In this document: positions 4,952-32,000 of the stretch, in pieces
Layout: each line of letters opens with the position of its first letter
How positions within the stretch are numbered: position 1 is the first letter of the stretch
Source of the DNA: Candidatus Saccharimonadota bacterium
GTDB lineage: Archaea; Nanohalarchaeota; Nanosalinia; Nanosalinales; Nanosalinaceae
Reading direction: 5' to 3'
Assembly: GCF_029232205.1 (NCBI RefSeq)
Contig: NZ_CP107255.1
Span: forward strand, 240,001-272,000
Length of the DNA stretch: 32,000 bases
Program-made: the position numbers and the translations under genes
Notes under the pieces: generated by a model
What the model saw: only the letters and a program-made list of their open reading frames with translations
What the model was told of the DNA's origin: nothing
Database searches by the model: none

Positions 4952-4971
4952 TGGGTTCTTGTGTGAGGTTT

Positions 4972-5172: not shown

Positions 5173-5177
5173 GATGT

Positions 5178-10555: not shown

Positions 10556-12393
10556 TTTCTGTGTTTTTCGAAGAATTCGTCTATTTCTTTCCACGGTGCT
10601 CTGGTGGATACGAGTTTTTTGTCGTCTGGGAAGACTTTTCTGTAGTTGCTCCATTCGTATCTTTCGTCCATGTAGACTATTACTCCTTTGTCTGTTTCTG
10701 ATCTTATGCATCTGCCTGCGGCCTGTATTGCGCGGTTCATTGCTGGGTAGCTGTATCCGTAGTCCCATCCTTTTCCGAATTTTTCGTCGTAGAAGTCTAT
10801 GAGTTCTTTTGTTTCGAGGTCTGGTCTTTGTAGTGGGAGGCCTACGATGAATACTGCTTTGAGTACTTCTCCTGGGAAGTCTACTCCTTCTCCGTAGCTT
10901 CCTGCTGCTACTCCTAGTAGTACTGAGTCTCCCTGTTCTTTTCTGTCTGCGAACTTGTCGAGGAGGTTTTGTTTCTGGTCTTTTGATGCGTTTCTTTCTT
11001 CTATGAATATTTGTCGGTCGCTGTGTTCTTCTATTAGTGGTTTGACCTGGTTCATCATTGAGTAGCTTGGGAAGAAGACTCCGCAGTTGCCGTCTACTGC
11101 GTCGAATGATTTGGATAGGTACCAGGCGTATTTTTGCCACATTGAGTCGTCTCTTTCCTCGTATTTGGTTGTAAGTGTTGGTATTACGAGGTCGAGTTCG
11201 TTTTCTTCTGGGAATGGTGATTTGAATGCTCTTGTTTCTGTTTTGTCTTCTTCGAGGCCTAGGAGGTTTACGTACATTTCCTGTGGTGTGAGGGTTGCGG
11301 ACATGAGGATGCTGCTGTGGGCCTTGTTTAGTGGTTTTTTGCTGGAGATCTGTGGGTCGAGGCAGGAGTATTTTATTTTGAGTGTTTGGCTGCCTTGGTT
11401 GTATTCTCTTTTGATTACGCGTACGAATCCGTTGTCTTCTCCTTCTTCCCATGCTCTGAGGAATTCTGCTATCTGTGCGCAGTAGCTTCTCTCCTGTTCT
11501 TCCTCGACCTCTTCTGCCACATTTTCCATGTCTTTGACCATGTCCTCGTAGTCTCTGAAGTTGTCGATGCTGTCTACCAGGTCGTCTTTTTTGATTGTGG
11601 CGTCTTGTTCTGTCTGTGATAGTTTTTCGTTGGCCAGTCTTGTTACTACTCTTTTCAGTTGGTCGAGATTTTCCTGTTCTGAGTAATATCCGAATGTTTC
11701 GGCCTCCGTTATCGATCTCTTGATGTTTGGTAGAGAGAGCGAGTATGTGAACAGTGATCTGTTTCTTGAGGGCATGTTATGGGCCTCGTCCACGATAAGG
11801 ATGCAGTCCTCCAGGTTGATGTCTGCGTTTTCAAGTACTGCTTCTCTGACTCCTGGGTGGAATATGTGGAAGTAGTCTGCTATTATCAGGTCTGCGTCTG
11901 CTGCTAGCTGCATAGAAAGTGAGTAGGCGCATACTTTGTCGCAGGCCTTTTTCATTTCTCCTGCGGATAGGTTCTGGTGTTTTACTTCTTTTAGTTTTCT
12001 CTGGGCCTGTGTTGTTAGTTCGTGGTTGTCTTTGAAGGTGTTGTCGTGTCTTGGGCAGTCTGGGCCTTCTCCTCCTCTTGTTGATATATCTGCTTCGCAT
12101 AGGTGGTCTTTTCCGATGAGGTCTACTGAGATTATGTTTTCTCCGTGTCTTTCGTTTATTTTTCTTACTGTTTCGAGCGCGATCTGGTGTTGGCTGTGTC
12201 TTGGGGTGAGGAAGAATACTGTTTTGTCTTGTTCGCGTGCTTTTTCGATTGCTGGTGTTACTGTGCCTGCGGTTTTTCCTAGGCCTGTTGGTGCGTGTGC
12301 TACCAGGTTGCCCTCGTTGTTTAGGGCGTTTTCTGTTGATTCTATTAGTTCGTCCTGGCGTTCCCTTACTTGCTCGAATGGGAAAAGGTCCAT
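10552..12393 (-). CDS. xpd: XPD/Rad3-family (DinG-like) superfamily-2 DNA helicase with 4-Cys Fe-S domain
   Basis: - Motif I: AHAPTGLGKT.
- Four Cys between motifs Ia and II: HLCEAD, PDCPRH, KKACDKVCAYS.
- DEAH box: LIVDEAHNMP.
- C-terminal motifs: GSYGEGVDFPGEVLKAVFIVGLPLQRP and IQAAGRCIRSETDKGVIVYMDERY. Confidence 0.9.
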   Translation of the reverse strand: MDLFPFEQVRERQDELIESTENALNNEGNLVAHAPTGLGKTAGTVTPAIEKAREQDKTVFFLTPRHSQHQIALETVRKINERHGENIISVDLIGKDHLCEADISTRGGEGPDCPRHDNTFKDNHELTTQAQRKLKEVKHQNLSAGEMKKACDKVCAYSLSMQLAADADLIIADYFHIFHPGVREAVLENADINLEDCILIVDEAHNMPSRNRSLFTYSLSLPNIKRSITEAETFGYYSEQENLDQLKRVVTRLANEKLSQTEQDATIKKDDLVDSIDNFRDYEDMVKDMENVAEEVEEEQERSYCAQIAEFLRAWEEGEDNGFVRVIKREYNQGSQTLKIKYSCLDPQISSKKPLNKAHSSILMSATLTPQEMYVNLLGLEEDKTETRAFKSPFPEENELDLVIPTLTTKYEERDDSMWQKYAWYLSKSFDAVDGNCGVFFPSYSMMNQVKPLIEEHSDRQIFIEERNASKDQKQNLLDKFADRKEQGDSVLLGVAAGSYGEGVDFPGEVLKAVFIVGLPLQRPDLETKELIDFYDEKFGKGWDYGYSYPAMNRAIQAAGRCIRSETDKGVIVYMDERYEWSNYRKVFPDDKKLVSTRAPWKEIDEFFEKHRN

Positions 12394-12415: not shown

Positions 12416-12424
12416 CATAAAAAC
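12416..12424 (-). promoter_or_regulatory. GTTTTTATG (minus strand): candidate XPD TATA box, possibly also an oligo-T terminator for the upstream cluster
   Basis: Lies 23-31 nt upstream of the XPD ATG (12393). The T5 run in the minus sense lies 54-62 nt downstream of the zinc-ribbon gene stop. Confidence 0.3.
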
Positions 12425-12450: not shown

Positions 12451-12466
12451 TACACAGGTTCCTGTG
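12451..12466. terminator. Perfect inverted repeat ACACAGG-TT-CCTGTGT between the zinc-ribbon gene and XPD
   Basis: Read directly. It lies 12 nt beyond the stop at 12478. In the minus sense no U-run follows immediately, so a terminator role is uncertain. It could instead be a protein-binding site. Confidence 0.25.
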
Positions 12467-12477
12467 TTTTTAACTTT

Positions 12478-12825
12478 TTATTGGAAGAGGAGGAATGCGA
12501 GTCCTGCGACGAGGGCCATGAGGATTATTCCTGTGTAGATCATGGAGATGAGTAGTCTGTTTTGTTCTTTCCAGAGTACCATTTGGTGTCTGGTTTCGGC
12601 CAGTTTTTTCGGTATTTCTTCTTTTTTCTGTTCTACTTTTTCTTTGGCCTTGTCTACCTTGGTTGGTGGTGTTGGTATTTCTCTTATTTCATCTTGGTAG
12701 CACTGGGGGCAGTGATCTGGTAGAACTTCGTGTTCGTCGTATTTTTCTGAGTACCACTGGTTTCCGCATCGCATACATTCTACGTTGCGGTAGTCGTATT
12801 TGTTGTCCCAGTCTTTCAGATTCAT
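12478..12825 (-). CDS. Tail-anchored zinc-ribbon membrane protein
   Basis: 115 aa. Two CxxC pairs (C17/C20 in ECMRCG, C39/C42 in HCPQCY), a Lys/Glu-rich linker, and a single C-terminal TM helix (LLISMIYTGIILMALVAGLAFLLF). The start overlaps the upstream stop (ATGA). Confidence 0.65.
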   Translation of the reverse strand: MNLKDWDNKYDYRNVECMRCGNQWYSEKYDEHEVLPDHCPQCYQDEIREIPTPPTKVDKAKEKVEQKKEEIPKKLAETRHQMVLWKEQNRLLISMIYTGIILMALVAGLAFLLFQ

Positions 12826-14378
12826 TGTTTCTTCTGTGCCATCTGAAGTACCAGTTCAGAAAGTTCTTCAACCTGGTTCTCCAGTTCATCGTTTCTTTGC
12901 TGTTGTTCCTCTAGTTCGTCTAGTCGTTCCTTGATCTTGCTGTTTCTTGCTCTCTGGTAGCTTTCGATTATGTCTCTGATGTTGTCGGTATCTTTTACGG
13001 AGTCCTCAAGCTGTTCGACTTTTTCCTGTAACTGGTCGATCTCTTCGGACAGGTTTTCATCGTCTTCGTCTCCTGTTTTCTCTTTGAGGTTATCTACATC
13101 TTCTTTCAGCTGTTCAATGCTTTTTTCGTGGCCCTCAATGTCGCCGATTTCTTCCTTTATTTTCTCCTCGAATCTGGCGTCGGTCATCACGCCTTCGAGT
13201 TCTTTTTCATCGTCTTCGGCAATCTCCTTTAGCTTATCGTTCAGGCTGTCTTCGTCCAGTTTGTCATCGATGTTAAGCTTGATCTTGTCAATGTCTTTGA
13301 CCTGATCCTGCAGCATTTCTTCGTGTGCTTCCGTCTTGCTTTTTACGGAGTCAAGTTCTGGTAGGCGGCCTTCGATCTCGCCGAACATCGATTCGACTTT
13401 GGATTCTTTTTCGTTGATGTCTCGCTTCAGTTGTTCGATTTTGTCCATTTTTTTCTGAAGCTTTTCCTGCATTTCTGCCAGGTTGTCGAAGTCGTCTACT
13501 TTGTCGACGTTTTCTTTGATGTCGTCTACTTTGTTCGATAAGTTATCTAGAAGCTCTTTGTTCTGTTCTGACTGGGCCTGTACTCCTTCAACTTTTCCGT
13601 TGATCTTCTCGAATCGTTTATTGATTTTTTCAGGCTCCATCTCGTCGTAGATGTCTTCTATCTTCTTGTAGCCTTGCTTTATGTCGTCTACTTCTTTTTC
13701 CTGTTCGAGAACCATGGATCGGACTTCGCCGATCTTTTCAGAAATATTTCCTATACGTTCATTGATCTGGTCCTGAAAGCTGTCTACTCCTTCAAAACGT
13801 CCTTCCAGCTTCTCTGTTTTCTGCATCAGGTCCTGGAGCTCGATGCTGTCGTCTTCTTGCTCGTCATCTTCGTATTGATCTGGGTCGTAGTCGATGTCCT
13901 GGTCTTCTCTGGCAATAGATCCTACTGTTTCTGGTTCATCGTCTTCTTCCTCTTCGTCGCCATCTTCTCCCTCGCTTTCATCTTCTGACTCCTCGGCCTC
14001 GTCCTCAGAGTCGCCATCTTCTTCTGTATCATTTTCGGTTTCTTCCGCTTCGTCCTTGTTTTCATCAGCGGAGTTCTTTTCTTCGCTTTCTTCATTCTCT
14101 GCCTGTTCTTCGTTGTTTCCTTCTTCAGAGTCTTCTTTCTCGGCCTCTGCGGATTGATCTTCGTCACTCTCTTCCTCCATTTCTTCTTGGAGGGCCTCTT
14201 CGTTTTCTTCTGGTTGTTCGTCTAGTTCTTCTTGAGAATCTTCTACTTCTTCGGGGCTGTTCTCTTCTTCCGAACTCTCTTCGCTGTCTTTGTGTTCTTC
14301 TTTGGTCTCTTCTACCTGTTTGTCGACCTCTTCTTCTACGTCTTTCTTTCTACCAGGGATTTTGTCGAGAACGCCCAT
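12822..14378 (-). CDS. Highly acidic coiled-coil protein (about 175 aa Asp/Glu-rich disordered head plus about 340 aa heptad-rich rod)
   Basis: 518 aa. The N-terminus is almost pure E/D/S/N/K low complexity. The remainder is long helical heptad-like sequence (…IEQLKRDINEKESKVESMFGEIEGRL…EQLQEKVEQLEDSVKD…). There is no TM helix and I recognised no enzymatic motif. GTGAT lies 5 nt before the ATG. Confidence 0.6.
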   Translation of the reverse strand: MGVLDKIPGRKKDVEEEVDKQVEETKEEHKDSEESSEEENSPEEVEDSQEELDEQPEENEEALQEEMEEESDEDQSAEAEKEDSEEGNNEEQAENEESEEKNSADENKDEAEETENDTEEDGDSEDEAEESEDESEGEDGDEEEEDDEPETVGSIAREDQDIDYDPDQYEDDEQEDDSIELQDLMQKTEKLEGRFEGVDSFQDQINERIGNISEKIGEVRSMVLEQEKEVDDIKQGYKKIEDIYDEMEPEKINKRFEKINGKVEGVQAQSEQNKELLDNLSNKVDDIKENVDKVDDFDNLAEMQEKLQKKMDKIEQLKRDINEKESKVESMFGEIEGRLPELDSVKSKTEAHEEMLQDQVKDIDKIKLNIDDKLDEDSLNDKLKEIAEDDEKELEGVMTDARFEEKIKEEIGDIEGHEKSIEQLKEDVDNLKEKTGDEDDENLSEEIDQLQEKVEQLEDSVKDTDNIRDIIESYQRARNSKIKERLDELEEQQQRNDELENQVEELSELVLQMAQKKQ

Positions 14379-14412
14379 GTTTTATCACAATTATGTTTCC
14401 GTTTGCTGGTAT

Positions 14413-25200: not shown

Positions 25201-28200
25201 AGACCCCATTCATTTTGACTGCGGTTGTTTAGTCCGATCCATTCTTCTGTTTGGGCATTTTGAATCTCTACGTTTCTTAGATGGCTGTCAGTTGCTGTTA
25301 GATTGATGTTCACTGTTGCATTGCTTCTCATTGTTTCGAAGCTCGCGTTGGTTCCCAGATTGGATAGGCTTGGAGGAGTATCGTCTACGGTGTAGGTCTT
25401 GCTGTCGTTCTTTATGCTGTTTCCTGCCTTGTCTGTTGCTGTGATATTGAGGTATCCATCGTTGTCTATCTCAACATCCTGTACCCAGATCGATCCATTC
25501 CAGAACAGGCTTTCTCCTTCTGCCGTTACTTCTGAGATGGTCTCATCTGACTCAGAGCTTACATTCACAGTAGTTCTAACTGTGCTGTTTGATTGGATTA
25601 TAGAGTCATTTAGAGTTATTTCTGATATTGAAGGCGGGTTATCGTCTATCTTCAAGGTGTAGTTTGCTGTTGCATTGTTTCCTGGCTTGTCAGAGGCCTT
25701 TAGCACAAAGGTGCAGTTTTCGGTTACTCCACTGTTACATCCTAGGGATGACGGTGTTCCCTCGTAGTACCAATCTGAGTCAGAGCTATTGCTCATATCT
25801 GTGCCGTTTACAGTTACTTCCTGTAGGGATGCATCTTCTACTGTTGCCGTTAGTTTGATGGTATCATCGCTTCTGCTCGTATTGAATGTTGCATTGGAGG
25901 TAAAGTTGCTGATACTTGGAGGATTACTGTCTTCTTCAACGTATACTGTTTTACTGTCGTTAAGGTTTCCTGCTTTATCTGTTGCTTCCAGAGTGAACGT
26001 TGAAGTATTGAATACCTCGAAAGTACAGCTGTAACCTGTGCCTGTTGTAGAAGTCATGTTACAGCGGTTTACTGTGTCATTTCTGATCTTCACTGTGTTC
26101 AGTGTAGGATCTGATACATTTGCTGTAAATTCTACAGACTCTCCTGCTCTAACAACACTTGTATTTGCTGAGAAGTTTGCTACAGAAGGCCTTACATCGT
26201 CTATTGTTATGTTTAGTGTATCGCTTTGCTGGTTATCTGCCTTGTCTGTTGCTGTGAGGCCTAGTAGGCATTCTAGGTTTTCTCCTGATGGGCATCCGTC
26301 TCCTATTATGCTGGCTGTTCTCTGGATGGTCCAGTTATCTCCGTCTTGGTTCATTACAGTGCCGTTGAGTTTCACGTTTCTTAGGTTATCGTCTGTTACG
26401 TTTGCACTGATTGTGAAGGCCTCATCGCTTCTGACTACTCCGTAGGTAGTGTTTTCTGTGAAGCTGTTGATTGTTGGCGGTGTGTTGTCGATTGTGTAGT
26501 TGGCAGTTATGTTGTTTCCTACGTTTCCTGCTAGGTCTTCTGCTGTAACGTTTACAGGGTTCTGTGTTGTGCCATCTACAGTAATATTTGCCTGCCAGGT
26601 TCCGTTGATTTGTGTCATTTCCACGCCGTTTGCCCACGCAGTGTCCATTGCATCTTCTTCTATGGTGGCCTTTACGAGAATTTCTGTGCTTCCTTGGATT
26701 ATATAGTCGCTTAGCTCTACACTGGTTATCTGCGGTGCTCCGTTGTCAATTCTCAGGTCGTAAGTTGTTGTGTTTGTGTTGTCTGCTTTGTCTGTTGCTC
26801 TGGCGTTTATTGTGTATGCCTGTTCGTTGACCATTCCCAGTGAGGCCGGGGTAGTTTCAATGTACCATGTGTCGCCATTTCCTTTGGTTAGGTCAATGTA
26901 GCTATCTGAGCTCTTGTTTTCTATTTCTACCGTTCTCAAGTTTTCGTTGTCTGTCGACTGAAGGTCAAATCTCAGATATGTATCACTGCTAGCTATGTCA
27001 TTAAATCCTCCGTTACTTGCATTTGAGTCAAAGCTATCGATTGTTGGCGGCGTATCATCAATTGTGTAACTGATGCTTGCGGTTTCGATGTTCTCTGCCT
27101 TGTCGTAGGCTGTGAAGTTTACTATTCCATCATCGGCTGTTACCTGTCCCGTCCAGTTATCGCCGTTCTGGTTAAGGTTATTTCCTTCTGCAAGAACTCT
27201 GTCAACAGCAACTTCGTCAGTTACATTGGCCCATACTGAGAGTACAGTACCGCTCTGAACGTAGTAGTCATCTATTGAGGCCTCGTTGATTGTTGGAGCA
27301 AGGTTGTCGTAGTATGTGTATGCATTGGCGTTGTAATTGGTTGAACCGAATCCAAGTCTGTCCTGTGATGTTGCCTTGAGAGTGTAGTTACCTGACGGCT
27401 CCATGTTTGGATTCCACTCTACTTCACAATGGTAGTTTGGATCTGCGAAGGTACACTCTCCTGTGTTCAAAGGCCCGTATACGCTGCCGTTGGTGTAGGC
27501 CAAGCTGAATTCTGTTCCTGTTCTGTTGAATGTGTCTTCGTCAATTGTCACGTTGAATCCTACTACCTCGCTACCGTTGGTGTATGTTAGGTTGGAGTTG
27601 AACTGGCTTAGCTGAGGTGGCGTGTTATCTACGAAGAAGTCTAATGTTTCAGTTCTCTGATTTCCTTCAGTGTCAGAGGCCTCAATGCTTAGGCTGTGTG
27701 TTCCATCTGAAAGGCCTAATCCACTGGTATCGATGTCTGTGAAGTACTCATAGCCACTTCCGCTTAGTGCGTTCCAGCCATTTGAGTCGATCTGGTAGTT
27801 GTATGTCGATGAGTCGCCGTTGCCGAGTGTGTCCTGAATGCTTGCGTTGAAGACGTTGCTTTCTTTGAGGTGGCCATTCTTGACGCTGTTGTAGCCTACT
27901 TCAAGTTCTGCGATGGCGTTAGCTATGCCTACTCCGCTCTGACTGTAGCTTCCCTGGAACTTGGTCCCCGTCTTTCTGTATAGTTCCTGGACTTCTGAGT
28001 TTGTAAGTGCGGTGTCGTATACCTGTACTTCGTCCATTGATCCTTCGAAGTAGTTAGATATTCCACCGGAACAGCCTGTATCGATGTCGGCTCCAATCAT
28101 AAAGTTGCAGCCATTGTAGTTTAATGTTACAGAGCCTATTTCCTGTTTATCTACCATTTTTCCGTCTACGTACCACTTGACTTCGTTACCGTCATATGAC

Positions 28201-31200
28201 GTGGAGATGAAGGTCCATTCATTCATTGGTAGCTTGCCAGCACTAGCTGTGTAAGTCTGATCATCAATTATGGTTCTCAGGTACTGGTTGTTTTCGAACA
28301 ACATTGCTTCGTTTGCTCCGCTACCATCAGGTCGACCCATGAAGAAGACGTTGCTCTTATTGTATTTTACCCAGGCTGAGTATGTGAATTGCTGTAGATC
28401 CATGCTGCTTGGGCTGCTGACGTTTACGTAGTCATCTGAACCATCAAATTTGAAGGCCTGAGTATTTGATATCCCTTCTGAACCTGTGTTAATTCCGTTC
28501 TGCGTTGTTCCATCATTGTTGTTTCCGGAGTAGTCTGTTACTGTTCCTCCGCTACCGCTGACGGCCTGGTCCATTCTCCAGTATCCTACTAGGTTGTCTC
28601 CTGCGGTTCCATCCTGGTATCCGATTCCTAGGTCACCGCTGTTTGCGTCTCTGTCTGCTGTGAGGCCGTTAAATGTTCCTGATTCCCAGTCTGCTTCGCT
28701 GCTGATGTTGGCCATTATATTTCCGTTGCTGTCTTTGAGTGCAATCCAGCCTATTTCAGGTGAACCTGTTGGATAATCGCTTGTTAAGTCGATGTCTAGG
28801 TCTGCTCCACCGTCTGTTGCGCCAAAGTCTAGTTCGTAGTCTGTGACTGTTGGAATTATGTTAACTGTCTCAGTTTTTCCATTGTCCGTGACTTGGATTG
28901 TGGCCTCGCTGTATAGCTGTTCTTTGAAGCTAATTCTTGGTGCGGTGTTATCTACTATTACATTTTGTACACTGCTCTGGTCCTGGTTGTCTAGTGTATC
29001 GCTTCCCTTGACCCATAGTTTGTATGCACCATCTGCAAGGTTTGTGGTGTCTACATTTGTTGAGTAGCTTGTTCCACTGTCGAATCCTACTGATCCAAAC
29101 CCTGTTCCTGATGGTGTGAAGTTTCCACTGCTGTTCTCAAGCGCGTACTTCATTGACCCTGTATCTGGGTTGCTTGGTAATACTGTTACATCGTCGAAGT
29201 AAGCGTTTACGTCGTCGAGGCCTGACTCCGTTCCACATAGGTCTGCTCCGTCTACTTGGATTGTCAGTGTTTCTGCGTTGCTTGGAACTTTGAATCCTTG
29301 TCTTACTGTTCTTAGGCCTGTGCCCGATGAGTAGTGGCTGGCCCATACTCCTTTCTTTTCTTTGATTATGCTTCCGCTGTTCCAGGCCTTGATGTGTAGT
29401 CTTGTATCTGCTTCTGCTCCGTACTGTCCATCGTATGCTTCTCCGTCTGTTTCTGTACAGATTCCTTGGCTCATGTCTGCGTAGAGATCGGCCTTCACTT
29501 CGATTGTCTGGTCTCGGAGTTCTGTGGTTGTTGCTGTGCTGATGTTTTGGCTGCCTTTTGCGTTTGGATATACAGCTGTTGATGCGAATCTTCCGCAGTC
29601 TCCGCCGTTACACTGTCCTGACTGTACTGTTCCTCCGCCGCTATATGTCCATGCGCCTGTGTTCCCGTTTTCGAAGTCCCAGTTCTGAAGCTGGTAGAAT
29701 CGGTCTGCTAGTGTTGCTTGTAGTGTCTGGGTTCCTGAGATGCTTTCGCCGGAGTTAATATTGTCTATGGATGTCTTTGGCTTGGCTCCGTCGACCTGTA
29801 CTGTTGCGTAGTTTTCGAAGGCGTTCTGGATGTTGCCTGGGGTGTCTGTTGCTAGTGCTAGGAAGGACTGTGTTCTGTTAATAGTTATATCGCAGCTGTA
29901 TGTGCTTCCGCCTTCTTTGGTGAATTCGCTGTTTGTACAGATTGTTTCGTTTCCTGAGGTGTCGCGGCCTTCGAAGTTTTCGAGGAACGTTTCGTCCAGG
30001 TTGATGTCTGTTATGTCTGCTTTAACTGTTACTGTGCTTCCTGGCGCTACTGGTGTTGATGGACTTGCTCTTACATTGGTTATACTTGGTGCTGTGTTGT
30101 CAATCTTGAACTTCATGGTTTTTGTGTTGGTATTCCCTAGATCATCTTGGGCCTCTACTGTGATCTGGTAGTTTCCGTCTGCTTCGGTTGTTGTGTCTAG
30201 GACTGCTCCGTATGAGGATCCTCCGTTTGTTCCTAGGTCGGTCCATGAAACAATAGTATCTGTTACAGTACCATCGCTATCGAGTTCCTCTATCTTGTAG
30301 TCATAGGTTGTTGGATCTCCGTTTTCCAGAAGATCGTAAATTGTCTCGTTGAAGCTTGTCTGGCCCTGCACGTTTCCTGTTTTGATATTTCTGGCATCTA
30401 CTGTTAGCTGGCCTGGGTTTTCTGTCAAGTCAATATTTCTGATCTGGTACAGGCCTGAGTATTTCTCGATTTCGCTTGCTGTCTCTTCAAATTCTCCTGG
30501 ATCATTGATTGTTCCTGCTGAAGTGTCGCCATCCAGGTAACCTATTTGCAGGCTTCCCGGCTGTGCATCTGGGGTTGTTCCATCAAAGTTACCGTCTTTC
30601 CACTGTGTCTCTGTTGTGAGGTTTTCAAGCAGGCCTCCCTGAGCTCCGTTGAGTTGTAGCGAGTCTAGTACTGGTGTGGAAGTTACCTGGTCTGTTGCGA
30701 GTTTGACGGAAATTGTTGCTGTTGTACCGTCAAGGTCTGAAAGGTCTGCAGTCGTTACTCCTGATTTTCTGAGGTTTACTATAATAGTATCTCCTGTATC
30801 TGTCTCTACTTTAACCCATGCCTGGTTGTAGATATTTTCTTCGTATGTTATCTCAGGAGGAGTGTTGTCAAACTGTGGTGTTACCTTTACAGTATTTCTA
30901 TTTCCGGCCTTGTCCTCAGCAACCACATACACATCATGGTTTCCATCCTCAAAGTTCGTTGTATCAACATCTGCCGTCCAAGGCCCTCCACCTGTCAGCG
31001 ATCCTGACGTGTTTGTTCCATCTGCCTTTGTGATCTTGTACTCTGGGGAATTGGTATCTAGGTGGCTGTCGCTGATGCTTGCATCAATAGTGATTGTTCC
31101 TGTTACAGGGCTGCTTGGAGGCTGATTAATTGTGATACTTGGCTTTGTATCATCTGTATCTACCTGAACTGTCTGGTAGTTAATGTTGCCGAGTGTGTCA

Positions 31201-32000
31201 TTTGCGAATACCGCGAACTCCTGTGTCTGATTGACCTGTACATCACAGCTCCCGCTGAACTGAGAGTTGTCACAGTAGATCTCTCCTGTTGCTCCCGTCT
31301 TTGACCACACGTAGTTGTTGTTATCTTGGTCTGGGTCGTGATATCCTATCCAGTGTTGTCCACTGAACTGGCCTGTTATCAGGTCGTTTTCCTCTTGGTT
31401 CTCAATTGTTGCTAGATGATCTCCATTTGACTGGCAAGTATCTCTGGCATTTGGCCAGGTCATGTCGGAGGATGTGTTGTAGTATGTGCCATTATCTCTC
31501 TCACAGATTGCGGCCTCAGTTTCGCCTGTAGGATAATCATGCCAGACTCCTCCGCTTGATGTCAGCATCTTGACATAAGGTTGATCTCCTGCATCAGGCT
31601 GGCCGCTATCCCAGTTTTTGTAGTAGGAGGTGACTACTGTCTGGTCTAGGTGGCCTTCTCCGTCGTTGATGCTGCTTGAGATTGTTACTGTGTCGTTTGT
31701 GTTTACTACTGTGTCATTTGCTGATGTGCTTGTGACTGATGGAGGTGTTGCGTCTACTTCTACGGTTATTGTTCGGCTATCATTGAGGTTGCCGGCGTTG
31801 TCTCTGGCCCAGAATCTGTACATGTAGGATCCTGTGCTTCCTGGTGTGTTGACTGTACATTGGTTGAGGTCGGTTCCTGCATCGTTGAAAGTTGAGTTTC
31901 CACATACTGTGCTGCTATCTCTGAGCAGTTTTGTTGCGTATAGGCCACTTTCTAGATCTCTTGTTATGGCTGAGAAGTTGACTGGCTGGTTTGCTGCTGT
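16299..32000 (-). CDS. Giant multi-lectin / Ig-repeat surface protein with C-terminal TM helix and cytoplasmic HerA/FtsK-superfamily ATPase (5' end beyond right edge; >5,233 codons)
   Basis: The ORF track gives 16299-31823 (5,174 aa from the first Met). My translation of 31824-32000 in the same frame has no stop (TAANQPVNFSAITRDLESGLYATKLLRDSSTVCGNSTFNDAGTDLNQCTVNTPGSTGSY-MYRFWARDNAGN) and continues a module motif. The real start and any signal peptide therefore lie outside the window. Domain content is listed in the separate features below. Confidence 0.9.
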   Translation of the reverse strand, partial: TAANQPVNFSAITRDLESGLYATKLLRDSSTVCGNSTFNDAGTDLNQCTVNTPGSTGSYMYRFWARDNAGNLNDSRTITVEVDATPPSVTSTSANDTVVNTNDTVTISSSINDGEGHLDQTVVTSYYKNWDSGQPDAGDQPYVKMLTSSGGVWHDYPTGETEAAICERDNGTYYNTSSDMTWPNARDTCQSNGDHLATIENQEENDLITGQFSGQHWIGYHDPDQDNNNYVWSKTGATGEIYCDNSQFSGSCDVQVNQTQEFAVFANDTLGNINYQTVQVDTDDTKPSITINQPPSSPVTGTITIDASISDSHLDTNSPEYKITKADGTNTSGSLTGGGPWTADVDTTNFEDGNHDVYVVAEDKAGNRNTVKVTPQFDNTPPEITYEENIYNQAWVKVETDTGDTIIVNLRKSGVTTADLSDLDGTTATISVKLATDQVTSTPVLDSLQLNGAQGGLLENLTTETQWKDGNFDGTTPDAQPGSLQIGYLDGDTSAGTINDPGEFEETASEIEKYSGLYQIRNIDLTENPGQLTVDARNIKTGNVQGQTSFNETIYDLLENGDPTTYDYKIEELDSDGTVTDTIVSWTDLGTNGGSSYGAVLDTTTEADGNYQITVEAQDDLGNTNTKTMKFKIDNTAPSITNVRASPSTPVAPGSTVTVKADITDINLDETFLENFEGRDTSGNETICTNSEFTKEGGSTYSCDITINRTQSFLALATDTPGNIQNAFENYATVQVDGAKPKTSIDNINSGESISGTQTLQATLADRFYQLQNWDFENGNTGAWTYSGGGTVQSGQCNGGDCGRFASTAVYPNAKGSQNISTATTTELRDQTIEVKADLYADMSQGICTETDGEAYDGQYGAEADTRLHIKAWNSGSIIKEKKGVWASHYSSGTGLRTVRQGFKVPSNAETLTIQVDGADLCGTESGLDDVNAYFDDVTVLPSNPDTGSMKYALENSSGNFTPSGTGFGSVGFDSGTSYSTNVDTTNLADGAYKLWVKGSDTLDNQDQSSVQNVIVDNTAPRISFKEQLYSEATIQVTDNGKTETVNIIPTVTDYELDFGATDGGADLDIDLTSDYPTGSPEIGWIALKDSNGNIMANISSEADWESGTFNGLTADRDANSGDLGIGYQDGTAGDNLVGYWRMDQAVSGSGGTVTDYSGNNNDGTTQNGINTGSEGISNTQAFKFDGSDDYVNVSSPSSMDLQQFTYSAWVKYNKSNVFFMGRPDGSGANEAMLFENNQYLRTIIDDQTYTASAGKLPMNEWTFISTSYDGNEVKWYVDGKMVDKQEIGSVTLNYNGCNFMIGADIDTGCSGGISNYFEGSMDEVQVYDTALTNSEVQELYRKTGTKFQGSYSQSGVGIANAIAELEVGYNSVKNGHLKESNVFNASIQDTLGNGDSSTYNYQIDSNGWNALSGSGYEYFTDIDTSGLGLSDGTHSLSIEASDTEGNQRTETLDFFVDNTPPQLSQFNSNLTYTNGSEVVGFNVTIDEDTFNRTGTEFSLAYTNGSVYGPLNTGECTFADPNYHCEVEWNPNMEPSGNYTLKATSQDRLGFGSTNYNANAYTYYDNLAPTINEASIDDYYVQSGTVLSVWANVTDEVAVDRVLAEGNNLNQNGDNWTGQVTADDGIVNFTAYDKAENIETASISYTIDDTPPTIDSFDSNASNGGFNDIASSDTYLRFDLQSTDNENLRTVEIENKSSDSYIDLTKGNGDTWYIETTPASLGMVNEQAYTINARATDKADNTNTTTYDLRIDNGAPQITSVELSDYIIQGSTEILVKATIEEDAMDTAWANGVEMTQINGTWQANITVDGTTQNPVNVTAEDLAGNVGNNITANYTIDNTPPTINSFTENTTYGVVRSDEAFTISANVTDDNLRNVKLNGTVMNQDGDNWTIQRTASIIGDGCPSGENLECLLGLTATDKADNQQSDTLNITIDDVRPSVANFSANTSVVRAGESVEFTANVSDPTLNTVKIRNDTVNRCNMTSTTGTGYSCTFEVFNTSTFTLEATDKAGNLNDSKTVYVEEDSNPPSISNFTSNATFNTSRSDDTIKLTATVEDASLQEVTVNGTDMSNSSDSDWYYEGTPSSLGCNSGVTENCTFVLKASDKPGNNATANYTLKIDDNPPSISEITLNDSIIQSNSTVRTTVNVSSESDETISEVTAEGESLFWNGSIWVQDVEIDNDGYLNITATDKAGNSIKNDSKTYTVDDTPPSLSNLGTNASFETMRSNATVNINLTATDSHLRNVEIQNAQTEEWIGLNNRSQNEWGLNNTTANLGCPEDGQRAKCNLTARGIDRADNIANITTEITVDDVEPVIQTVLLTGESDNVLKPNSTINIASVLYNDTDATLLNVTAEGETLMFTGERFNNTENRIESDWGGSVEIDNDGIINVTATDKADNKGANTSVDYIVDNENPEIYNLTINSSNNIVRSDEELNFTVTATDEYNVSTVTLEGYSMNQTGNTWYRVDTLSNIGCPTGETSCEVTTTATDQAEWTNQTTLNVTIDDVAPEVGTLSAINASDGNPDESLKKWLLDWRLTNTTDYTNLSVELFAYNETTNQPVDNTSYMEYYANDTYRDLETPAYFNASNGTYKFVANVTDRADNTVNSTYELKISARPPEATNMTPSDKFPEEDRQNINLTVNVTDTNSIQFVEIDIIGPNGDNVTGKRMEKISNNTGNFTGGYYRTNFTPTENGWYNTSIYARDTTDEEENKLFEDTFKAIGKTTGSVDLTANKTNFDNITQDYNGKTTLIAEFNNTGKVTAYETVLQEILAQNGITTNSTSIQCGDLAANATCNATIEATVTPTADPGNKRFSQFVDWVNPDGTTDDIGTTESINVEANPILKETGGQYYQELWWNETYQLPMEIYSFGNVDLTQVEPDIKQRALNNTEYLADNEFTIVNQSFTVEEGLTETAFIEVQIPDRGNYTSRAFVNATGNAENCDGSNCTDEKIIDLDVYRKLDVNLLNSSGNNLRDNLTLKAEVVDEEDTGISNYTVGFYDNGSLIRNVSTNSNGVAETHWNAISEEVGDHNIEVQIWDNESRYYKAYNDTETITKTLKDNLSISGGAQDTDMYWYDTQNDHYITAEYQLIDRNNNPVTGAAVDFYANATGSFEKIKTCETDGIGNCTILWNTTVTQPTTAQIRANSTKQYFSDSMTLTDMIEILGGFSIEIRSPADRPEKEYDRDLLRGSEQYLNASVRNQNGDEVTPNQLNWTINTTEGNVKIGENKTYNWSILNNVSTGLHKMNATAEGGNGTVTFDNNTVEIFDPVNITLTDQSTSSTERANSTVTFQAKVMNERNNTAVEGYPCRISDSSGLINTSTTNSSGYCNVTWNTGSTDFVGTHNITVDLATNRTGTWYKPQNTQSTTVTLTEKLNATINNPTGLINRYDTVDLESTIRDVYSQVNANVTWFYENQTILNTEDGIWNTTNQTLGPHNITVQAEKENYTTDNTTENITIYGYSDQAFSLADSYTTGDLVNISVRVTDNNTEEGLENYPVQLYKKHEDNTTETWLNGTTGANGWYNTTWDTENSTIGTYNITTEIKDNSSLYYNTTTENITETVFIGGTLQTNITNISAETIYRDNYSNPKQTTLRAETSSVNESVENASTFFLYNNQTIGQCTTNSTGDCNITWNPGNQTEIGNITVQAYSSAENYYNSSKANITLNVRTAAEPSWNDTEGAIAYNFSTKEGVELLPRIQETYTDRGIDNFPMTVYWGTRQETYTANISADDWNNVGTGNISQSDSGLVVSNTTAEKTVDIQEMDQLSFIANDSFTLELRNQTGWTEYTGSIENRNVTGIRVSSNNTVEILQIKMTDLDLENRKKLLEREPVGTFSYTNGTIDTAPVKNDYILTNEGGRNGTYVGARPGYDIDNVEGLKQEGVFGSKAAIANVSKLQPNESFHVRQSYAYWDSDNQKPFAEYDAISLWINSQLEANLSIENGDQTCSTSKVLETGTGWELKQVNLSNYSTQCGTDVGEIDIEFTNTGDSNFTGQVGVDEISKLNTVNTTADGERSLNWLPPRVDTFTFKLAMGDKQYYNNSQAYALKDYIVKSGGGGSSAGAELGGPTEDQDETAPESGQNVTSFNVTPRNFNVTVATNTYGTLGQIEVESNRTSSIKVNLSETENSELLDVRDQISLDPLETKTVDVGYDTSSAGDYNATLSLFNPETNEKSVDVNITMHVRPVEMNLLSAEAENGVDNLTAGDRINLTADLTFNGTDSIENADWTANIQDEKCGAANSTYNNQTDEWEISCYAPEIQYNPINTTLELVAETDNIETREKLSTQYRDTTGPFITSTTSENVEQRENATVEVDAFDNVNISSIEGQLVYLENNTAVENISFQRNGTVYKANATETAWDGDYDVNVTLTDENGYTTSKALPISVFPRVTVTGQMNNVKPNFKFKRPNSNTTLEEEETDSTYNLTVQNRTYDIEIDADTDTGNGIQRHKLEFNEANISGNTTNAVQLTSVDIGENTNFSHPEQTTNKTFAGISIENNMTFREVVVTLNYTTTEDFDEEEENNLRMYKCQYGNISKCNTTSTWTQLNGTINIDENTYSAKSNSTSSYILERYDTPDQENDNTEENPEEGQDTSSGGSNSGENTGGTIGPITGGGREQNESFNDTGLDDAYGPEPFIISPRIFQPIMFRGEERTFLLEIENNQNETIELNLDVEGELQKLLSFDNTSTRISPNSSTITQMRASIPENASIKSYKGDIIATYGNTTTRSTQQILVARRGIQGMNLDLQPLTQSVEPGNNFTFAVSIAEIELETPINVSITYYLRESSTDEILAQSNDSLNIMESTEFQRSFSTEGLGRGGYYVQAVAQARNSTVIDTATFSIQERFWTPFRTRAAVLLFLIMLISIGGWKAYQYYWVKRESEARYVFPVDYSKLPDDTDSDRMFEVGKIAETEKSAYINPEDLTTHAIVAGSTGSGKSVTANVIAEEALEEDIPVVVFDPTAQWTGFVKELKDDDLLKHYDRFDMDEETDPHPYPGVIKEISSEDPDIDFEELRNPGEITVFTLNELTTEQFDSAVRKIIDQIFEKEWEESPELEMLIVFDEVHRLLEEYGGEGGYKALEKGAREFRKWGIGLMMASQVTADFKQAISGNIMTEVQMQTKSMEDIDRVETKYGEEFAKRISSEDVGTGMIQNSNYNDGDPWFVDFRPTYHNPHKIPDSELEKYHELSEELDKLKDKLSQMKEQGQDVRDKKLELQLADNKLKQGRFKMARMYINSLKDELGIE
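16302..17387 (-). other. Cytoplasmic HerA/FtsK-superfamily ATPase domain of the giant protein
   Basis: Walker A AGSTGSGKS (17217-17240), PVVVFDPTAQW, Walker B MLIVFDEVHRLL, FRKWGIGLMMASQ, and a coiled-coil tail. No N-x-S/T sequon occurs in the ~360 aa. Confidence 0.8.
17424..17471 (-). other. Single transmembrane helix of the giant protein
   Basis: AAVLLFLIMLISIGGW, flanked by RTR on the outside and KAYQYYWVKRESE on the inside. Confidence 0.8.
21000..23140 (-). repeat. Asn/Thr-rich tract of Big_1 / carboxypeptidase-regulatory-like beta-sandwich modules
   Basis: Recurrent pattern V-x-F-(Y)...(T/S)-(D/N)-x-x-G-x-(A/C)-x-(V/I/T)-x-W-N. Examples: VGFYDNGSL..NGVAETHWNA, VDFYANATG..DGIGNCTILWNTT, PCRISDSSG..SSGYCNVTWNTG, PVQLYKKHE..ANGWYNTTWDTE, FFLYNNQTI..STGDCNITWNPG. 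Confidence 0.45.
24497..27632 (-). repeat. Eleven consecutive ~95-aa Ig-like modules delimited by D-(D/N)-x-x-P-x-(I/L/V) and ending (A/G)-x-D-(K/R)-A-(G/D)-N
   Basis: The twelve boundaries read from the translation are VDNTPPQL, YDNLAPTI, IDDTPPTI, IDNGAPQI, IDNTPPTI, IDDVRPSV, EDSNPPSI, IDDNPPSI, VDDTPPSL, VDDVEPVI, VDNENPEI and IDDVAPEV. Similarity is at protein level only and there is no DNA-level repeat. Confidence 0.65.
27972..28595 (-). other. LamG_3 / concanavalin-A-like lectin domain
   Basis: NLVGYWRMDQ...GTVTDYSGNNNDGT...AFKFDGSDDYVNV...FTYSAWVKY...EWTFISTSYDGNEVKWYVDGK...NFMIGAD...YFEGSMDEVQVYDTALTNSEVQELY. This is a near-textbook Laminin_G_3 pattern. Confidence 0.8.
29181..29699 (-). 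other. CBM_4_9-like (galactose-binding-like jelly-roll) domain
   Basis: Begins FYQLQNWDFENGNTGAWTYSGGG and ends NAYFDDVTV. These are the typical N- and C-terminal strands of CBM4/9/22-type modules. Confidence 0.45.
31296..31625 (-). other. C-type-lectin-like domain nested in an Ig-like module (giant protein aa ~67-176 from the first Met)
   Basis: Motifs NWDSGQPD...YVKMLTSSGGVWHDYPTGETEAAICE and MTWPNARDTCQSNGDHLATIENQEENDLI...QHWIGYHDPDQDNNNYVWS. Confidence 0.6.

What the first reader, a model, noticed from the sequence alone, without database searches (positions are those of the whole stretch)
12478..32000. Four colinear, translationally coupled genes form a candidate new cell-surface ATPase system
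**Seen in the sequence.**
- The giant gene's stop and the paralogue's start share a nucleotide (TAATG at 16299-16301).
- The paralogue's stop is 34 nt from the coiled-coil gene, which is preceded by GTGAT.
- The coiled-coil stop overlaps the zinc-ribbon start (ATGA at 12822-12825).
- Downstream of the fourth gene come a perfect hairpin and a T5 run. XPD has its own A/T box at the leaderless-promoter spacing, so the unit appears to end at about 12.45 kb.

**Inference.** The parts list is two membrane-anchored HerA/FtsK-type ATPases with very different ectodomain sizes, a long acidic cytoplasmic coiled-coil rod, and a tail-anchored Zn-ribbon that could tether the rod to the membrane. This resembles a membrane-spanning machine more than a simple adhesin locus. 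The cluster contains none of the following:
- NurA-like nuclease
- pilin or archaellin
- VirB/Ced-like channel subunit
- protease or endonuclease domain

It therefore does not match the HerA-NurA, Ced/Ted, type IV or SPEARE-type descriptions that I know.
Basis: inference. Interest (0 to 1): 0.8.

Follow-up and report, generated by a model that had tools for sequence, protein, structure and literature searches.

The report
Known SPEARE giant-adhesin ATPase operon
This is the already published giant "SPEARE" surface-protein locus of the nanohaloarchaeon Ca. Nanohalovita haloferacivicina, but its two small downstream genes, above all a coiled-coil partner found next to this kind of ATPase across many archaeal symbionts, appear not to have been described and make the machine easier to test.

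Summary
The sequence observations hold. Four minus-strand genes lie head to tail: TAATG overlap, a 34-nt gap with GTGAT, then an ATGA overlap. The unit ends before XPD.

The claim that it does not match SPEARE is wrong. The window comes from Ca. Nanohalovita haloferacivicina BNXNv. The giant gene is the C-terminal 5,233 codons of BNXNv_0298 (8,880 aa), cut by the window edge. The 628-aa gene is BNXNv_0297. Reva et al. 2023 described both as SPEARE-type giant proteins.

I did not find the following in the literature I could search:
- A cytoplasmic coiled-coil gene directly follows the ATPase in 73 of 80 genome loci. Conversely, the ATPase precedes the coiled-coil gene in 40 of 42 metagenome loci.
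- The Zn-ribbon tail-anchored gene is restricted to Nanohaloarchaeota (6 loci).
- Tandem giant and short ATPase domains evolve in concert.
- The ATPase belongs to the HerA clade, not VirB4/TraG.

Only the ATPase and coiled-coil families are conserved. No channel, pilin or nuclease is.

Most likely model (inferred): an adhesin anchored by a hexameric HerA-type motor built from giant and short protomers, with the coiled-coil protein docking on it. What it moves is unknown.

The parts
16299..32000 (-). Giant surface-protein gene. This is the C-terminal 5,233 codons of BNXNv_0298 (8,880 aa); the gene continues beyond the window.
   Evidence: The frame is open to base 32000. Pfam finds Lectin_C, Big_3_3, Big_13, Laminin_G_3 and DUF87/HerA_C. 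Identity with BNXNv_0298 rests on Reva 2023. The ectodomain carries 237 N-x-S/T sequons and the cytoplasmic part none.
17421..17489 (-). Single transmembrane helix of the giant protein (about aa 4838-4860 of the visible part).
   Evidence: Hydropathy scan. It is followed by the juxtamembrane ARYVFP motif, whose R, Y and P are invariant in the family.
16302..17390 (-). Cytoplasmic HerA-type ATPase domain plus C-terminal helical hairpin tail of the giant protein.
   Evidence: phmmer places the domain at 4871-5232. It is 88% identical in protein and 78.8% in DNA to the short paralogue's domain.
14413..16299 (-). Short paralogue (BNXNv_0297, 628 aa). It consists of a signal peptide, two Ig-like sandwiches, a TM helix (aa 232-256), a HerA-type ATPase (aa about 265-560) and a helical hairpin tail (aa 562-625).
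   Evidence: P0001 is 100% identical. AF2 model with pLDDT 82.5. Foldseek top ATPase hit is HerA 4d2i. The PDB profile search ranks HerA first. Walker A GSTGSGKS, Walker B FDEVH and the AREFRKWG motif are invariant.
14624..14715 (-). 92-nt block identical to 16510-16601 in the giant gene; a probable gene-conversion tract.
   Evidence: All 30 third-codon positions are identical, against 58.6% overall; the probability is about 1e-7 per placement.
14384..14388 (-). GTGAT, a Shine-Dalgarno-like element 5 nt before the coiled-coil ATG.
   Evidence: Sequence reading. Its function was not tested.
12822..14378 (-). Cytoplasmic coiled-coil partner (518 aa). It has an acidic disordered N-terminus (aa 1-170) and a conserved helical core (aa about 180-400) with invariant G217, R220 and P249.
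   Evidence: The family is found directly downstream of the ATPase in 73 of 80 loci. Core alignment. No Pfam family reaches its cut-off. The family has 813 representatives at E<=1e-10. The AF2 model is all-helical with pLDDT 64.
12478..12825 (-). Tail-anchored Zn-ribbon protein (115 aa). It has a C4 ribbon (C17, C20, C39, C42), a charged helix and a C-terminal TM helix (aa 89-112).
   Evidence: Orthologues hold the same position in 6 Nanohaloarchaeota loci. No Pfam or NCBIfam hit.
12452..12467 (.). Palindrome (ACACAG-GAAC-CTGTGT) just after the last gene.
   Evidence: The number of terminator-like sites in the region is no higher than in shuffled sequence (10 against 8.3), so this is weak on its own.
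12417..12423 (-). TTTTTAT. Probably both the oligo-T stop of the unit and the TATA-like box of XPD, at -30 to -24 from the XPD ATG at 12393.
   Evidence: Sequence reading. Inferred from general archaeal promoter and terminator rules; not tested.

Best explanation
**What it is.** This is the SPEARE-type giant surface-protein operon of Ca. Nanohalovita haloferacivicina BNXNv.

**Shown**
- The giant protein is an Ig/lectin/LamG-rich, heavily sequon-bearing ectodomain. One TM helix joins it to a cytoplasmic HerA-clade ATPase with intact catalytic motifs and a C-terminal helical hairpin.
- The next gene encodes the same TM, ATPase and tail on a two-domain ectodomain.
- The third gene encodes a cytoplasmic coiled-coil protein of a discrete family that is almost always coupled to this ATPase.
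- The fourth encodes a Nanohaloarchaeota-specific tail-anchored Zn-ribbon protein.

**Inferred**
- Giant and short protomers co-assemble into one membrane-apposed hexameric ring. The short copy dilutes the number of giant ectodomains per ring.
- The coiled-coil protein docks on the cytoplasmic face or tails of the ring as adaptor or scaffold. The Zn-ribbon protein holds it at the membrane.
- At the host contact made by the adhesin, ATP hydrolysis drives movement of a polymer (DNA or unfolded protein) across the symbiont membrane.

**Confidence by step:** identity about 0.95; functional two-gene core about 0.85; mixed ring about 0.45; translocase role about 0.35.
For: **Identity**
- 100% match to a BNXNv protein, plus the published description of the giant and short genes.

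**HerA clade**
- Pfam DUF87 (46.8 bits) and HerA_C (34.9 bits) are above their cut-offs.
- In the PDB profile search HerA scores E 5e-10, DotL 0.047 and FtsK 0.11; no VirB4 entry reaches E<=1.
- All ATPase-domain matches among the top 50 Foldseek hits are HerA.
- Walker A, Walker B and the arginine-finger motifs are invariant.

**Coupling**
- The coiled-coil gene lies directly downstream in 73 of 80 genome loci, with a gap of 60 nt or less in 56 of 72.
- In an independent metagenome sample seeded from the coiled-coil side, the ATPase lies directly upstream in 40 of 42 loci.
- Only these two families are conserved across the loci.

**Mixed ring**
- Within-genome giant-to-short ATPase identity is 87.4%, against about 80-82% for any between-genome comparison, and there are no separate giant and short clades.
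- A 92-nt identical tract with every third codon position identical.

**Zn-ribbon link**
- It holds a conserved position in 6 loci. A Zn-ribbon is fused to the N-terminus of the coiled-coil protein in L037 and L059.
- The SPEARE gene and its two downstream genes in Ca. Nha. antarcticus are all listed as lacking homologues in Ca. Nanohalobium constans.

**Precedents**
- CedB and CedD are two TM-anchored HerA-clade paralogues, both needed for DNA import.
- Cytoplasmic bridges have been seen by cryo-ET in the related SVXNc-Haloferax pair.
Against: - No channel-forming multi-TM protein, pilin or nuclease is conserved in the loci. Six single TM helices make only a narrow pore.
- Oligomeric state, partner binding, substrate and even co-transcription are untested.
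- A TTAAATA box before the coiled-coil gene could be an internal promoter.
- The broader coiled-coil family has free-standing members with no ATPase neighbour. That suits a general scaffold better than a dedicated adaptor.
- ATPase-less Ig-TM-tail genes sit in some loci.
- The family also occurs in Hydrothermarchaeota, including a 1.9-Mb contig, so it is not tied to symbiosis.
- HerA proteins in defence systems act as assembly platforms rather than transporters.
- The concerted-evolution signal is moderate: within-locus identity exceeds the best between-locus identity in 9 of 14 tandem loci.
Confidence: 0.55

Rival explanations
1. **Anchoring or scaffold machine without transport.** The ATPase ring and the coiled-coil protein form a cytoplasmic platform. 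It anchors, clusters or mechanically remodels giant adhesins at the contact site, and ATP drives assembly or disassembly rather than passage of a substrate.
For: - The partner belongs to a coiled-coil family that also exists free-standing.
- ATPase-less Ig-TM-tail variants carry the same tail motif.
- No channel component is conserved.
- MinD/ParA-like genes lie nearby in 7 loci, and small TM-plus-coiled-coil proteins lie upstream in 9 loci.
- HerA rings serve as assembly platforms in the SIR2-HerA and DUF4297-HerA complexes among the structural hits.
Against: - Membrane-tethered members of the HerA-FtsK superfamily with known roles (FtsK, VirD4, CedB/CedD) are transport motors (general knowledge).
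- The very short, invariant juxtamembrane linker holds the ring pore against the membrane.
- There is no direct evidence for a lattice.
Confidence: 0.3
2. **Type IV secretion-like 'straw' (Reva et al. 2023).** The giant protein and the second ATPase are VirB4/TraG-type secretion ATPases that inject effectors into the host.
For: - Published proposal for this very locus.
- There are weak local P-loop matches to TrwB_AAD_bind (23.8 bits) and AAA_10 (26.0 bits, below its cut-off).
- Cytoplasmic bridges have been reported.
Against: - The ATPase is HerA-clade by profile and by fold; no VirB4 entry reaches E<=1.
- The PF03135 N-terminal domain claimed for BNXNv_0297 is not found at E<=0.01.
- The N-terminus is a signal peptide plus two extracellular Ig-like domains.
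- No VirB3, VirB6, VirB8 or pilin homologue is conserved in 82 loci.
Confidence: 0.1
3. **DNA uptake and degradation device (original SPEARE model, Hamm et al. 2019).** A protease and toxin-like ectodomain opens the host, and the intracellular 'type III restriction' domain degrades imported DNA.
For: - A ResIII Pfam hit covers the ATPase (25-28 bits).
- The Nha. antarcticus SPEARE protein is synthesised.
Against: - The ResIII hit lies over the same region as the stronger DUF87 and HerA_C matches.
- No nuclease or protease family appears in the visible 5,233 aa or in the three other proteins.
- Reva et al. reached the same conclusion.
Confidence: 0.04
4. **The adjacency is incidental.** These are four unrelated genes that happen to be packed tightly in a small genome.
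For: - Overlapping start and stop codons are common in compact archaeal genomes.
- No transcript data were available.
Against: - The ATPase-coiled-coil pairing recurs in 73 of 80 and 40 of 42 loci across several archaeal phyla.
- The four-gene order is conserved in Nanohaloarchaeota while the flanking genes change.
Confidence: 0.02

Closest known systems
SPEARE proteins / giant membrane-anchored extracellular proteins of Nanohaloarchaeota (Hamm et al. 2019, PMC6642349; Reva et al. 2023, PMC10266531)
   Same: It is the same locus. BNXNv_0298 (giant) and BNXNv_0297 (short ATPase) share the giant Ig/LamG ectodomain, a TM helix near the C-terminus, the conserved cytoplasmic P-loop domain and the terminal coiled-coil tail.
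   Different: - The published accounts stop at the second ATPase.
- They label the ATPase as a restriction-enzyme domain (2019) or as VirB4/TraG (2023).
- The coiled-coil partner, the Zn-ribbon tail-anchored gene, the concerted evolution of the two ATPase domains and the HerA-clade placement are not in the papers I could search.
Ced DNA-import system of Sulfolobales (CedA, CedA1, CedA2, CedB, CedD, CedE)
   Same: Both have two paralogous, TM-anchored HerA-clade ATPases working at the membrane in cell-to-cell exchange. CedD is the best NCBIfam hit (46.6 bits).
   Different: - The CedD score is far below its cut-off of 600 and covers only the Walker A region.
- There is no VirB4-like cytoplasmic N-terminal domain.
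- There is no CedA/VirB6-like channel and no pilin in the loci.
- Here the N-terminus is an extracellular adhesin.
HerA-NurA and HerA-effector defence complexes (SIR2-HerA, DUF4297-HerA)
   Same: They give the closest sequence profile and fold for the ATPase core, and each has a dedicated partner encoded next to HerA.
   Different: - There is no HAS-barrel N-domain; a TM helix takes its place.
- No nuclease or Sir2 partner is present.
- NCBIfam HerA equivalog scores of 17-32 bits fall far short of cut-offs of 800-970.
- PADLOC gives only generic HerA hits.
Bacterial T4SS ATPases (VirB4, VirD4/TrwB), FtsK/SpoIIIE and T7SS EssC
   Same: They are membrane-tethered ring ATPases of the same superfamily that pump DNA or protein.
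   Different: The matches are only weak P-loop matches, and none of their partner genes is present.
DPANN coiled-coil proteins ('CCPs') of Hamm et al. 2024 (PMC11291902)
   Same: They are cytoplasmic coiled-coil proteins widespread in cluster-2 DPANN. They have the same weak look-alikes as the partner here, reovirus sigma-1 (6GAO) and nucleoporin-like hits.
   Different: Those CCPs were reported in loci with type IV pilus genes, not next to SPEARE-type ATPases. Whether the two sets are one family was not tested here.

Membership tests
SPEARE-type giant surface protein (Nanohaloarchaeota) | Very long protein, mostly extracytoplasmic, with adhesion domains including at least one laminin-G domain | tested here: met
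   More than 5,233 aa are visible (8,880 aa published). Laminin_G_3 scores E 8.6e-24, and Big_3_3, Big_13 and Lectin_C are also found. The ectodomain has 237 sequons.
SPEARE-type giant surface protein (Nanohaloarchaeota) | TM helix near the C-terminus followed by the conserved cytoplasmic P-loop ('ResIII-like') region | tested here: met
   The TM helix is at aa 4838-4860 and the ATPase at 4871-5232. ResIII and DUF87 hits are present.
SPEARE-type giant surface protein (Nanohaloarchaeota) | Homology to proteins named SPEARE in the literature | tested here: met
   P0008 (AQV86_02330 of SG9) is 64% identical to the short paralogue, and that locus tag is in the SPEARE list of Hamm 2019. The locus is named in Reva 2023.
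SPEARE-type giant surface protein (Nanohaloarchaeota) | [quoted passage not shown] | tested here: not met
   No protease or nuclease family appears in the visible part. Reva 2023 also disputes these domains. The N-terminal 3,647 aa lie outside the window.
HerA clade of the HerA-FtsK superfamily | RecA-like core with Walker A, Walker B and the arginine-finger (R-x-x-R-K-x-G) motifs; DUF87/HerA_C profile match | tested here: met
   DUF87 scores 46.8 bits (cut-off 23.2) and HerA_C 34.9 bits (cut-off 22). The motifs are invariant. HerA ranks first in the PDB profile search and in Foldseek.
HerA clade of the HerA-FtsK superfamily | N-terminal HAS barrel domain and an adjacent NurA nuclease (canonical HerA) | tested here: not met
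   The N-terminus is a signal peptide, Ig-like domains and a TM helix. No NurA is found in the window or the loci. HerA equivalog scores are far below their cut-offs.
HerA clade of the HerA-FtsK superfamily | Hexameric ring | not testable with these tools
   Only monomer prediction was available.
Type IV secretion ATPase (VirB4/TraG) | CagE/TrbE/VirB N-terminal domain (PF03135) and a VirB4-type ATPase profile | tested here: not met
   PF03135 is not found at E<=0.01. AAA_10 scores 26.0 bits, below its cut-off of 27.5. VirB4 and TraC equivalogs score 20-24 bits against cut-offs of 567-590. No VirB4 structure reaches E<=1.
Type IV secretion ATPase (VirB4/TraG) | Co-occurring T4SS core genes (VirB3/6/8, pilin) | tested here: not met
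   Only two families are conserved in 82 loci. Whole genomes were not examined.
Ced/Ted DNA import | CedB/CedD equivalog-level similarity and a CedA (VirB6-like) channel plus CedA1 pilin | tested here: not met
   CedD scores 46.6 bits against a cut-off of 600, and CedB 20.2 against 700. No multi-TM or pilin family is conserved in the loci.
Known Pfam/NCBIfam family for the coiled-coil partner or the Zn-ribbon protein | Score above the curated cut-off | tested here: not met
   The coiled-coil protein gives only generic coiled-coil hits below cut-off. The Zn-ribbon protein gives no hits.

The most novel reading that the evidence does not exclude
The conserved pair may be a previously unrecognised envelope-spanning machine. 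It consists of a surface adhesin whose membrane anchor is an active HerA-type ring ATPase, plus a dedicated coiled-coil partner. Optional short or ATPase-less protomers and lineage-specific small membrane tethers are added to it. It would be widespread in DPANN archaea and present in Hydrothermarchaeota, unrelated to T4SS, Ced or pili, and would build or energise the cytoplasmic bridges between DPANN symbionts and their hosts.
Probability: 0.2. Interest if true: 0.8.

Novelty: already known. Interest (0 to 1): 0.42.

Why it matters
SPEARE-type giant proteins are the most conspicuous candidates for how nanohaloarchaea and other DPANN symbionts grip and exploit their hosts. Their mechanism is unknown, and the two published models disagree: a restriction device or a T4SS 'straw'.

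This work changes what to test:
- The ATPase is HerA-clade.
- It almost always comes with one specific coiled-coil partner.
- Tandem giant and short copies are kept alike.

The testable proposals that follow are a mixed hexamer, a tail-to-coiled-coil interface and a small membrane tether. The work also removes the basis for the T4SS label. The locus itself is not a discovery, because it is published.

Tried and rejected
- **Bacterial promoter and terminator scan.** It does not apply to archaea, and the counts were no higher than in shuffled sequence.
- **Word-indexed homologue search with the coiled-coil profile.** It returned only 4 proteins, because coiled-coil words swamp the prefilter. I replaced it with the exhaustive representative search.
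- **Structure job on alignment A2.** I redid it with A3, but the model is low-confidence (pLDDT 64, pTM 0.25), so I ran no fold search on it.
- **First metagenome scan with A2.** I redid it with the closer set A4, which biases the sample towards the LSEEIGEL subfamily.
- **Literature searches.** A whole-word search for 'SPEARE' was flooded by an author name. 'DUF87 + DPANN' and 'arCOG06224' found nothing.
- **PADLOC and PHROGs.** These gave only generic HerA or coiled-coil similarity, so I rejected a defence-system or phage origin.
- **Makarova 2019 dark-matter paper.** It has no entry for this module.
- **Mobile-element reading.** This was prompted by arCOG06224 being in category X. I rejected it because the locus is syntenic among Nanohaloarchaeota and no integrase or conjugation genes recur.
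- **XPD as a fifth member.** I rejected this because the downstream neighbour differs in every relative.
Full report
**1. What is in the window.**

Four minus-strand ORFs run head to tail:
- 16299-32000: the giant gene
- 14413-16299: 628 aa
- 12822-14378: 518 aa
- 12478-12825: 115 aa

XPD follows at 10552-12393.

- TAATG at the giant/paralogue boundary.
- A 34-nt spacer with GTGAT 5 nt before the next ATG.
- ATGA at the coiled-coil/Zn-ribbon boundary.
- A palindrome at 12452-12467, then a T5 run at 12419-12423.

Two refinements apply.
- The giant ORF has no start in the window. Its frame is open to base 32000, so only its C-terminal 5,233 codons are visible.
- The T5 run lies 28 nt beyond the hairpin and is part of TTTTTAT at -30 to -24 of the XPD ATG. 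The 'terminator T-run' and the 'XPD A/T box' are therefore one element.

A TTAAATA box overlapping the paralogue's stop codon (14410-14416) leaves room for an internal promoter before the coiled-coil gene. I could not test transcription.

**2. Where the window comes from, and what is already published.**

The 628-aa protein is 100% identical to a protein of Ca. Nanohalovita haloferacivicina on a contig of 1,046,959 bp. That is the genome size given for strain BNXNv by Reva et al. 2023. The paper describes:
- the giant protein BNXNv_0298 (8,880 aa, gene 26,643 bp);
- 'another ATPase', BNXNv_0297, immediately downstream;
- an Ig-repeat ectodomain, a TM helix, a cytoplasmic ATPase and a terminal coiled-coil.

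It files these with the SPEARE proteins of Hamm et al. 2019. The SG9 orthologue of the short gene, AQV86_02330 (64% identical), appears under that locus tag in Hamm's SPEARE list, although the length printed there is 3,315 aa rather than 625. The core of the finding is already known.

**3. Anatomy.**

*Giant protein*
- Pfam finds Lectin_C, Big_3_3, Big_13 and Laminin_G_3 in the visible ectodomain. DUF87 and HerA_C are above their cut-offs in both ATPases.
- The ectodomain carries 237 N-x-S/T sequons. The cytoplasmic domains carry none, which fits the predicted topology.

*Short paralogue*
- The AlphaFold model (pLDDT 82.5) shows a signal peptide, two Ig-like sandwiches and one long TM helix.
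- A RecA-like ATPase and a three-helix C-terminal hairpin follow.
- Across 15 diverse homologues the Walker A (GSTGSGKS), Walker B (FDEVH), AREFRKWG and SQ motifs are invariant. So are residues of the juxtamembrane RYVFP motif and of the tail LKEGxF motif.

*Coiled-coil protein*
- It has no TM helix and a 52% acidic N-terminal 170 residues.
- Its helical core breaks at conserved G217/R220 and P249.

*Zn-ribbon protein*
- The 115-aa protein has a C4 ribbon, a charged helix and a C-terminal TM helix.

**4. Which ATPase clade.**

- In a profile search of PDB sequences, HerA proteins score E 5e-10 to 1e-6. DotL scores 0.047 and FtsK 0.11. No VirB4 entry reaches E<=1.
- Foldseek puts S. solfataricus HerA (4d2i) first. 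All ATPase-domain matches in the top 50 are HerA complexes; the remaining matches are to the Ig-like ectodomain.
- The best NCBIfam hit is CedD at 46.6 bits against a cut-off of 600.
- The PF03135 domain that Reva et al. report in the N-terminus of BNXNv_0297 is not found at E<=0.01. That N-terminus is predicted to be extracellular Ig-like domains.

**5. Comparative genomics.**

*From the ATPase side*
I kept 80 loci.
- By record title these are 33 Aenigmatarchaeota, 8 Nanohaloarchaeota, 2 Woesearchaeota, 2 Nanobdellati, 1 Parvarchaeota, 1 Pacearchaeota and 3 Hydrothermarchaeota. Another 24 are unclassified archaea, and a few carry labels that may reflect mis-binning.
- In nearly all of them the ATPase is the C-terminal end of an ORF of 1,000 to more than 4,000 aa.
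- A homologue of the coiled-coil gene lies directly downstream in 73 of the 80 loci that have at least 1.5 kb of downstream sequence. One of these is convergent. The gap is 60 nt or less in 56 of 72.
- All-against-all clustering of the genes in 82 loci shows that only these two families are conserved.

*The coiled-coil family*
- It is discrete. There are 950 representatives at E<=1e-3, 813 at 1e-10 and 287 at 1e-30 among 1.84 billion proteins.
- No Pfam or NCBIfam family reaches its cut-off.

*From the coiled-coil side*
- In 51 metagenome loci found with coiled-coil patterns, the ATPase is directly upstream in 40 of 42 evaluable cases.
- Six contexts sampled from the broader family included four to five free-standing genes. 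The family is therefore wider than the ATPase-coupled subfamily.

*Lineage-specific additions*
- A tandem giant+short arrangement occurs in 14 of 82 loci, counting the window and L081. These include the window, Ca. Nanohalococcus occultus, other Nanohaloarchaeota and Woesearchaeota.
- The Zn-ribbon gene occurs only in 6 Nanohaloarchaeota loci. A look-alike follows the coiled-coil gene in L010. A Zn-ribbon is fused to the N-terminus of the coiled-coil protein in L037 and L059.

*Unit boundary and phyletic pattern*
- In N. occultus the four genes are followed by PAC2, here by XPD, and in L001 and L002 by enolase. The unit therefore ends after the Zn-ribbon gene.
- In Ca. Nha. antarcticus the SPEARE gene (00330) is followed by unannotated genes of 589 aa and 86 aa. 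All three are listed as lacking homologues in Ca. Nanohalobium constans, which has no SPEARE.

**6. Concerted evolution of the two ATPase domains.**

| Comparison among five Nanohaloarchaeota | Protein identity |
|---|---|
| Short to short, between genomes | 81.2% |
| Giant to giant, between genomes | 81.7% |
| Short to giant, between genomes | 80.1% |
| Short to giant, within a genome | 87.4% (79-97%) |

- The short ectodomains are only 29-44% identical between these genomes.
- In 9 of 14 tandem loci the within-locus identity exceeds the best between-locus identity.
- In the window the two domains are 78.8% identical in DNA. They include a 92-nt identical block (14624-14715 = 16510-16601) in which all 30 third-codon positions match, against 58.6% overall.

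This points to gene conversion that keeps the two cytoplasmic modules alike. That is what one would expect if they share interfaces in one ring or bind the same partner. The signal is moderate, not overwhelming.

**7. How it most likely works.**

*Shown*
- An adhesin-type ectodomain is joined covalently, through one TM helix and a short invariant linker, to an intact HerA-type ATPase with a helical tail.
- A coupled cytoplasmic coiled-coil partner is present, and in this lineage a tail-anchored Zn-ribbon protein as well.

*Inferred*
- Six protomers form a membrane-apposed ring, as HerA-FtsK ATPases generally do. Giant and short protomers mix, which would relieve crowding by ectodomains of roughly 8,500 aa.
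- The coiled-coil protein binds the tails or the cytoplasmic face of the ring. The Zn-ribbon protein tethers it to the membrane.
- The ring uses ATP to move DNA or unfolded protein at the host contact.

*Precedents*
- The best functional precedent is Ced, in which two TM-anchored HerA-clade paralogues (CedB, CedD) are both needed for DNA import.
- Cytoplasmic bridges were reported by cryo-ET for the sister system SVXNc-Haloferax.

*Main rival*
- The main rival is a non-transport anchoring or scaffold role.
- It is favoured by the absence of any conserved channel protein, by free-standing members of the coiled-coil family, and by ATPase-less Ig-TM-tail genes inserted between the ATPase and coiled-coil genes in some loci.
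- I put the translocase reading at about 0.35 and the scaffold reading at about 0.3.
- The T4SS and restriction models are poorly supported (sections 3 and 4).

**8. Verdict.**

This is a real, conserved membrane-spanning unit of HerA type, with no nuclease, pilin or channel.
- It is wrong on novelty: this is the published SPEARE-type locus of this very organism.
- The extension beyond the literature I could search has four parts: the DPANN-wide coiled-coil partner, the Nanohaloarchaeota-specific Zn-ribbon tether, the homogenised paralogue pair, and the HerA rather than VirB4 placement.
- That extension is useful and testable, but it is incremental.

Noticed in passing
L013:11820-12830, L027:11778-12695, L045:7687-8646, L059:6488-7438, L075:11811-12578 (L057:11902-12717 lacks the tail): In some loci an extra gene sits between the ATPase and the coiled-coil gene. 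It encodes a signal peptide, an Ig-like ectodomain, a TM helix and a C-terminal tail that resembles the ATPase's helical hairpin, but no ATPase. A tail HMM scores E 1.8e-6, 1.5e-3 and 9e-3 in three of them.
   Followed up: partly
L005, L017, L019, L022, L025, L026, L028, L035, L067 (e.g. L035:2560-2790): A protein of about 75 aa, with an N-terminal TM helix and a short coiled-coil, is encoded just upstream of the giant ATPase gene in 9 loci, several of them Aenigmatarchaeota. It may be a functional counterpart of the Nanohaloarchaeota Zn-ribbon tether.
   Followed up: partly
L037:11799-13124 and L059:7442-9160: The coiled-coil partner carries an N-terminal CxxC...CxxC Zn-ribbon fused to it. 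I did not test whether this ribbon is homologous to the separate tail-anchored protein.
   Followed up: partly
L040:4432-5205, L046:12778-13551, L058:8805-9572, and four more loci: A MinD/ParA-like P-loop gene (GKGGVGKTT) lies close to the coiled-coil gene in 7 loci.
   Followed up: no
L086:3296-9927: A free-standing member of the coiled-coil family is followed by a second 738-aa coiled-coil gene. It sits beside two KaiC-like ATPases, a Roadblock/LC7 protein and a small GTPase-like gene, with no HerA-type ATPase nearby.
   Followed up: no
window 7000-32000: The AT skew on the + strand is extreme (-0.3 to -0.57), so the coding strand is far richer in A than in T. This probably reflects N/T/D/E-rich proteins and codon choice.
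   Followed up: no
window 14410-14416: A TTAAATA box overlaps the paralogue's stop codon, 32-38 nt before the coiled-coil ATG. It is a possible internal archaeal promoter that would give a very short leader.
   Followed up: no
window 4972-6630: A 66-aa XRE-type HTH gene is followed by four small membrane-protein genes with overlapping or abutting junctions (81, 133, 134 and 135 aa). One of them hits DUF2178, and the three larger ones are 23-28% identical to one another.
   Followed up: partly
window 12452-12467: The palindrome after the Zn-ribbon gene is followed on the + strand by TTTTAACTTT, so it reads as a terminator-like site in that direction too. No credible + strand gene ends there.
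   Followed up: no
L057 (Ca. Hydrothermarchaeum profundi, 1.9-Mb contig), L061, L079: The surface-protein-ATPase gene occurs in Hydrothermarchaeota, outside DPANN. In L057 and L079 the coiled-coil partner is also present; none was detected in L061. The system is therefore not restricted to small-genome symbionts.
   Followed up: partly
window 17900-27100 (giant aa 1633-2393 and neighbours): D-K-A-G/D-N-like motifs recur every 85-104 aa. They mark about 100-aa Ig-like modules, which matches the repeat size modelled by Reva et al.
   Followed up: no
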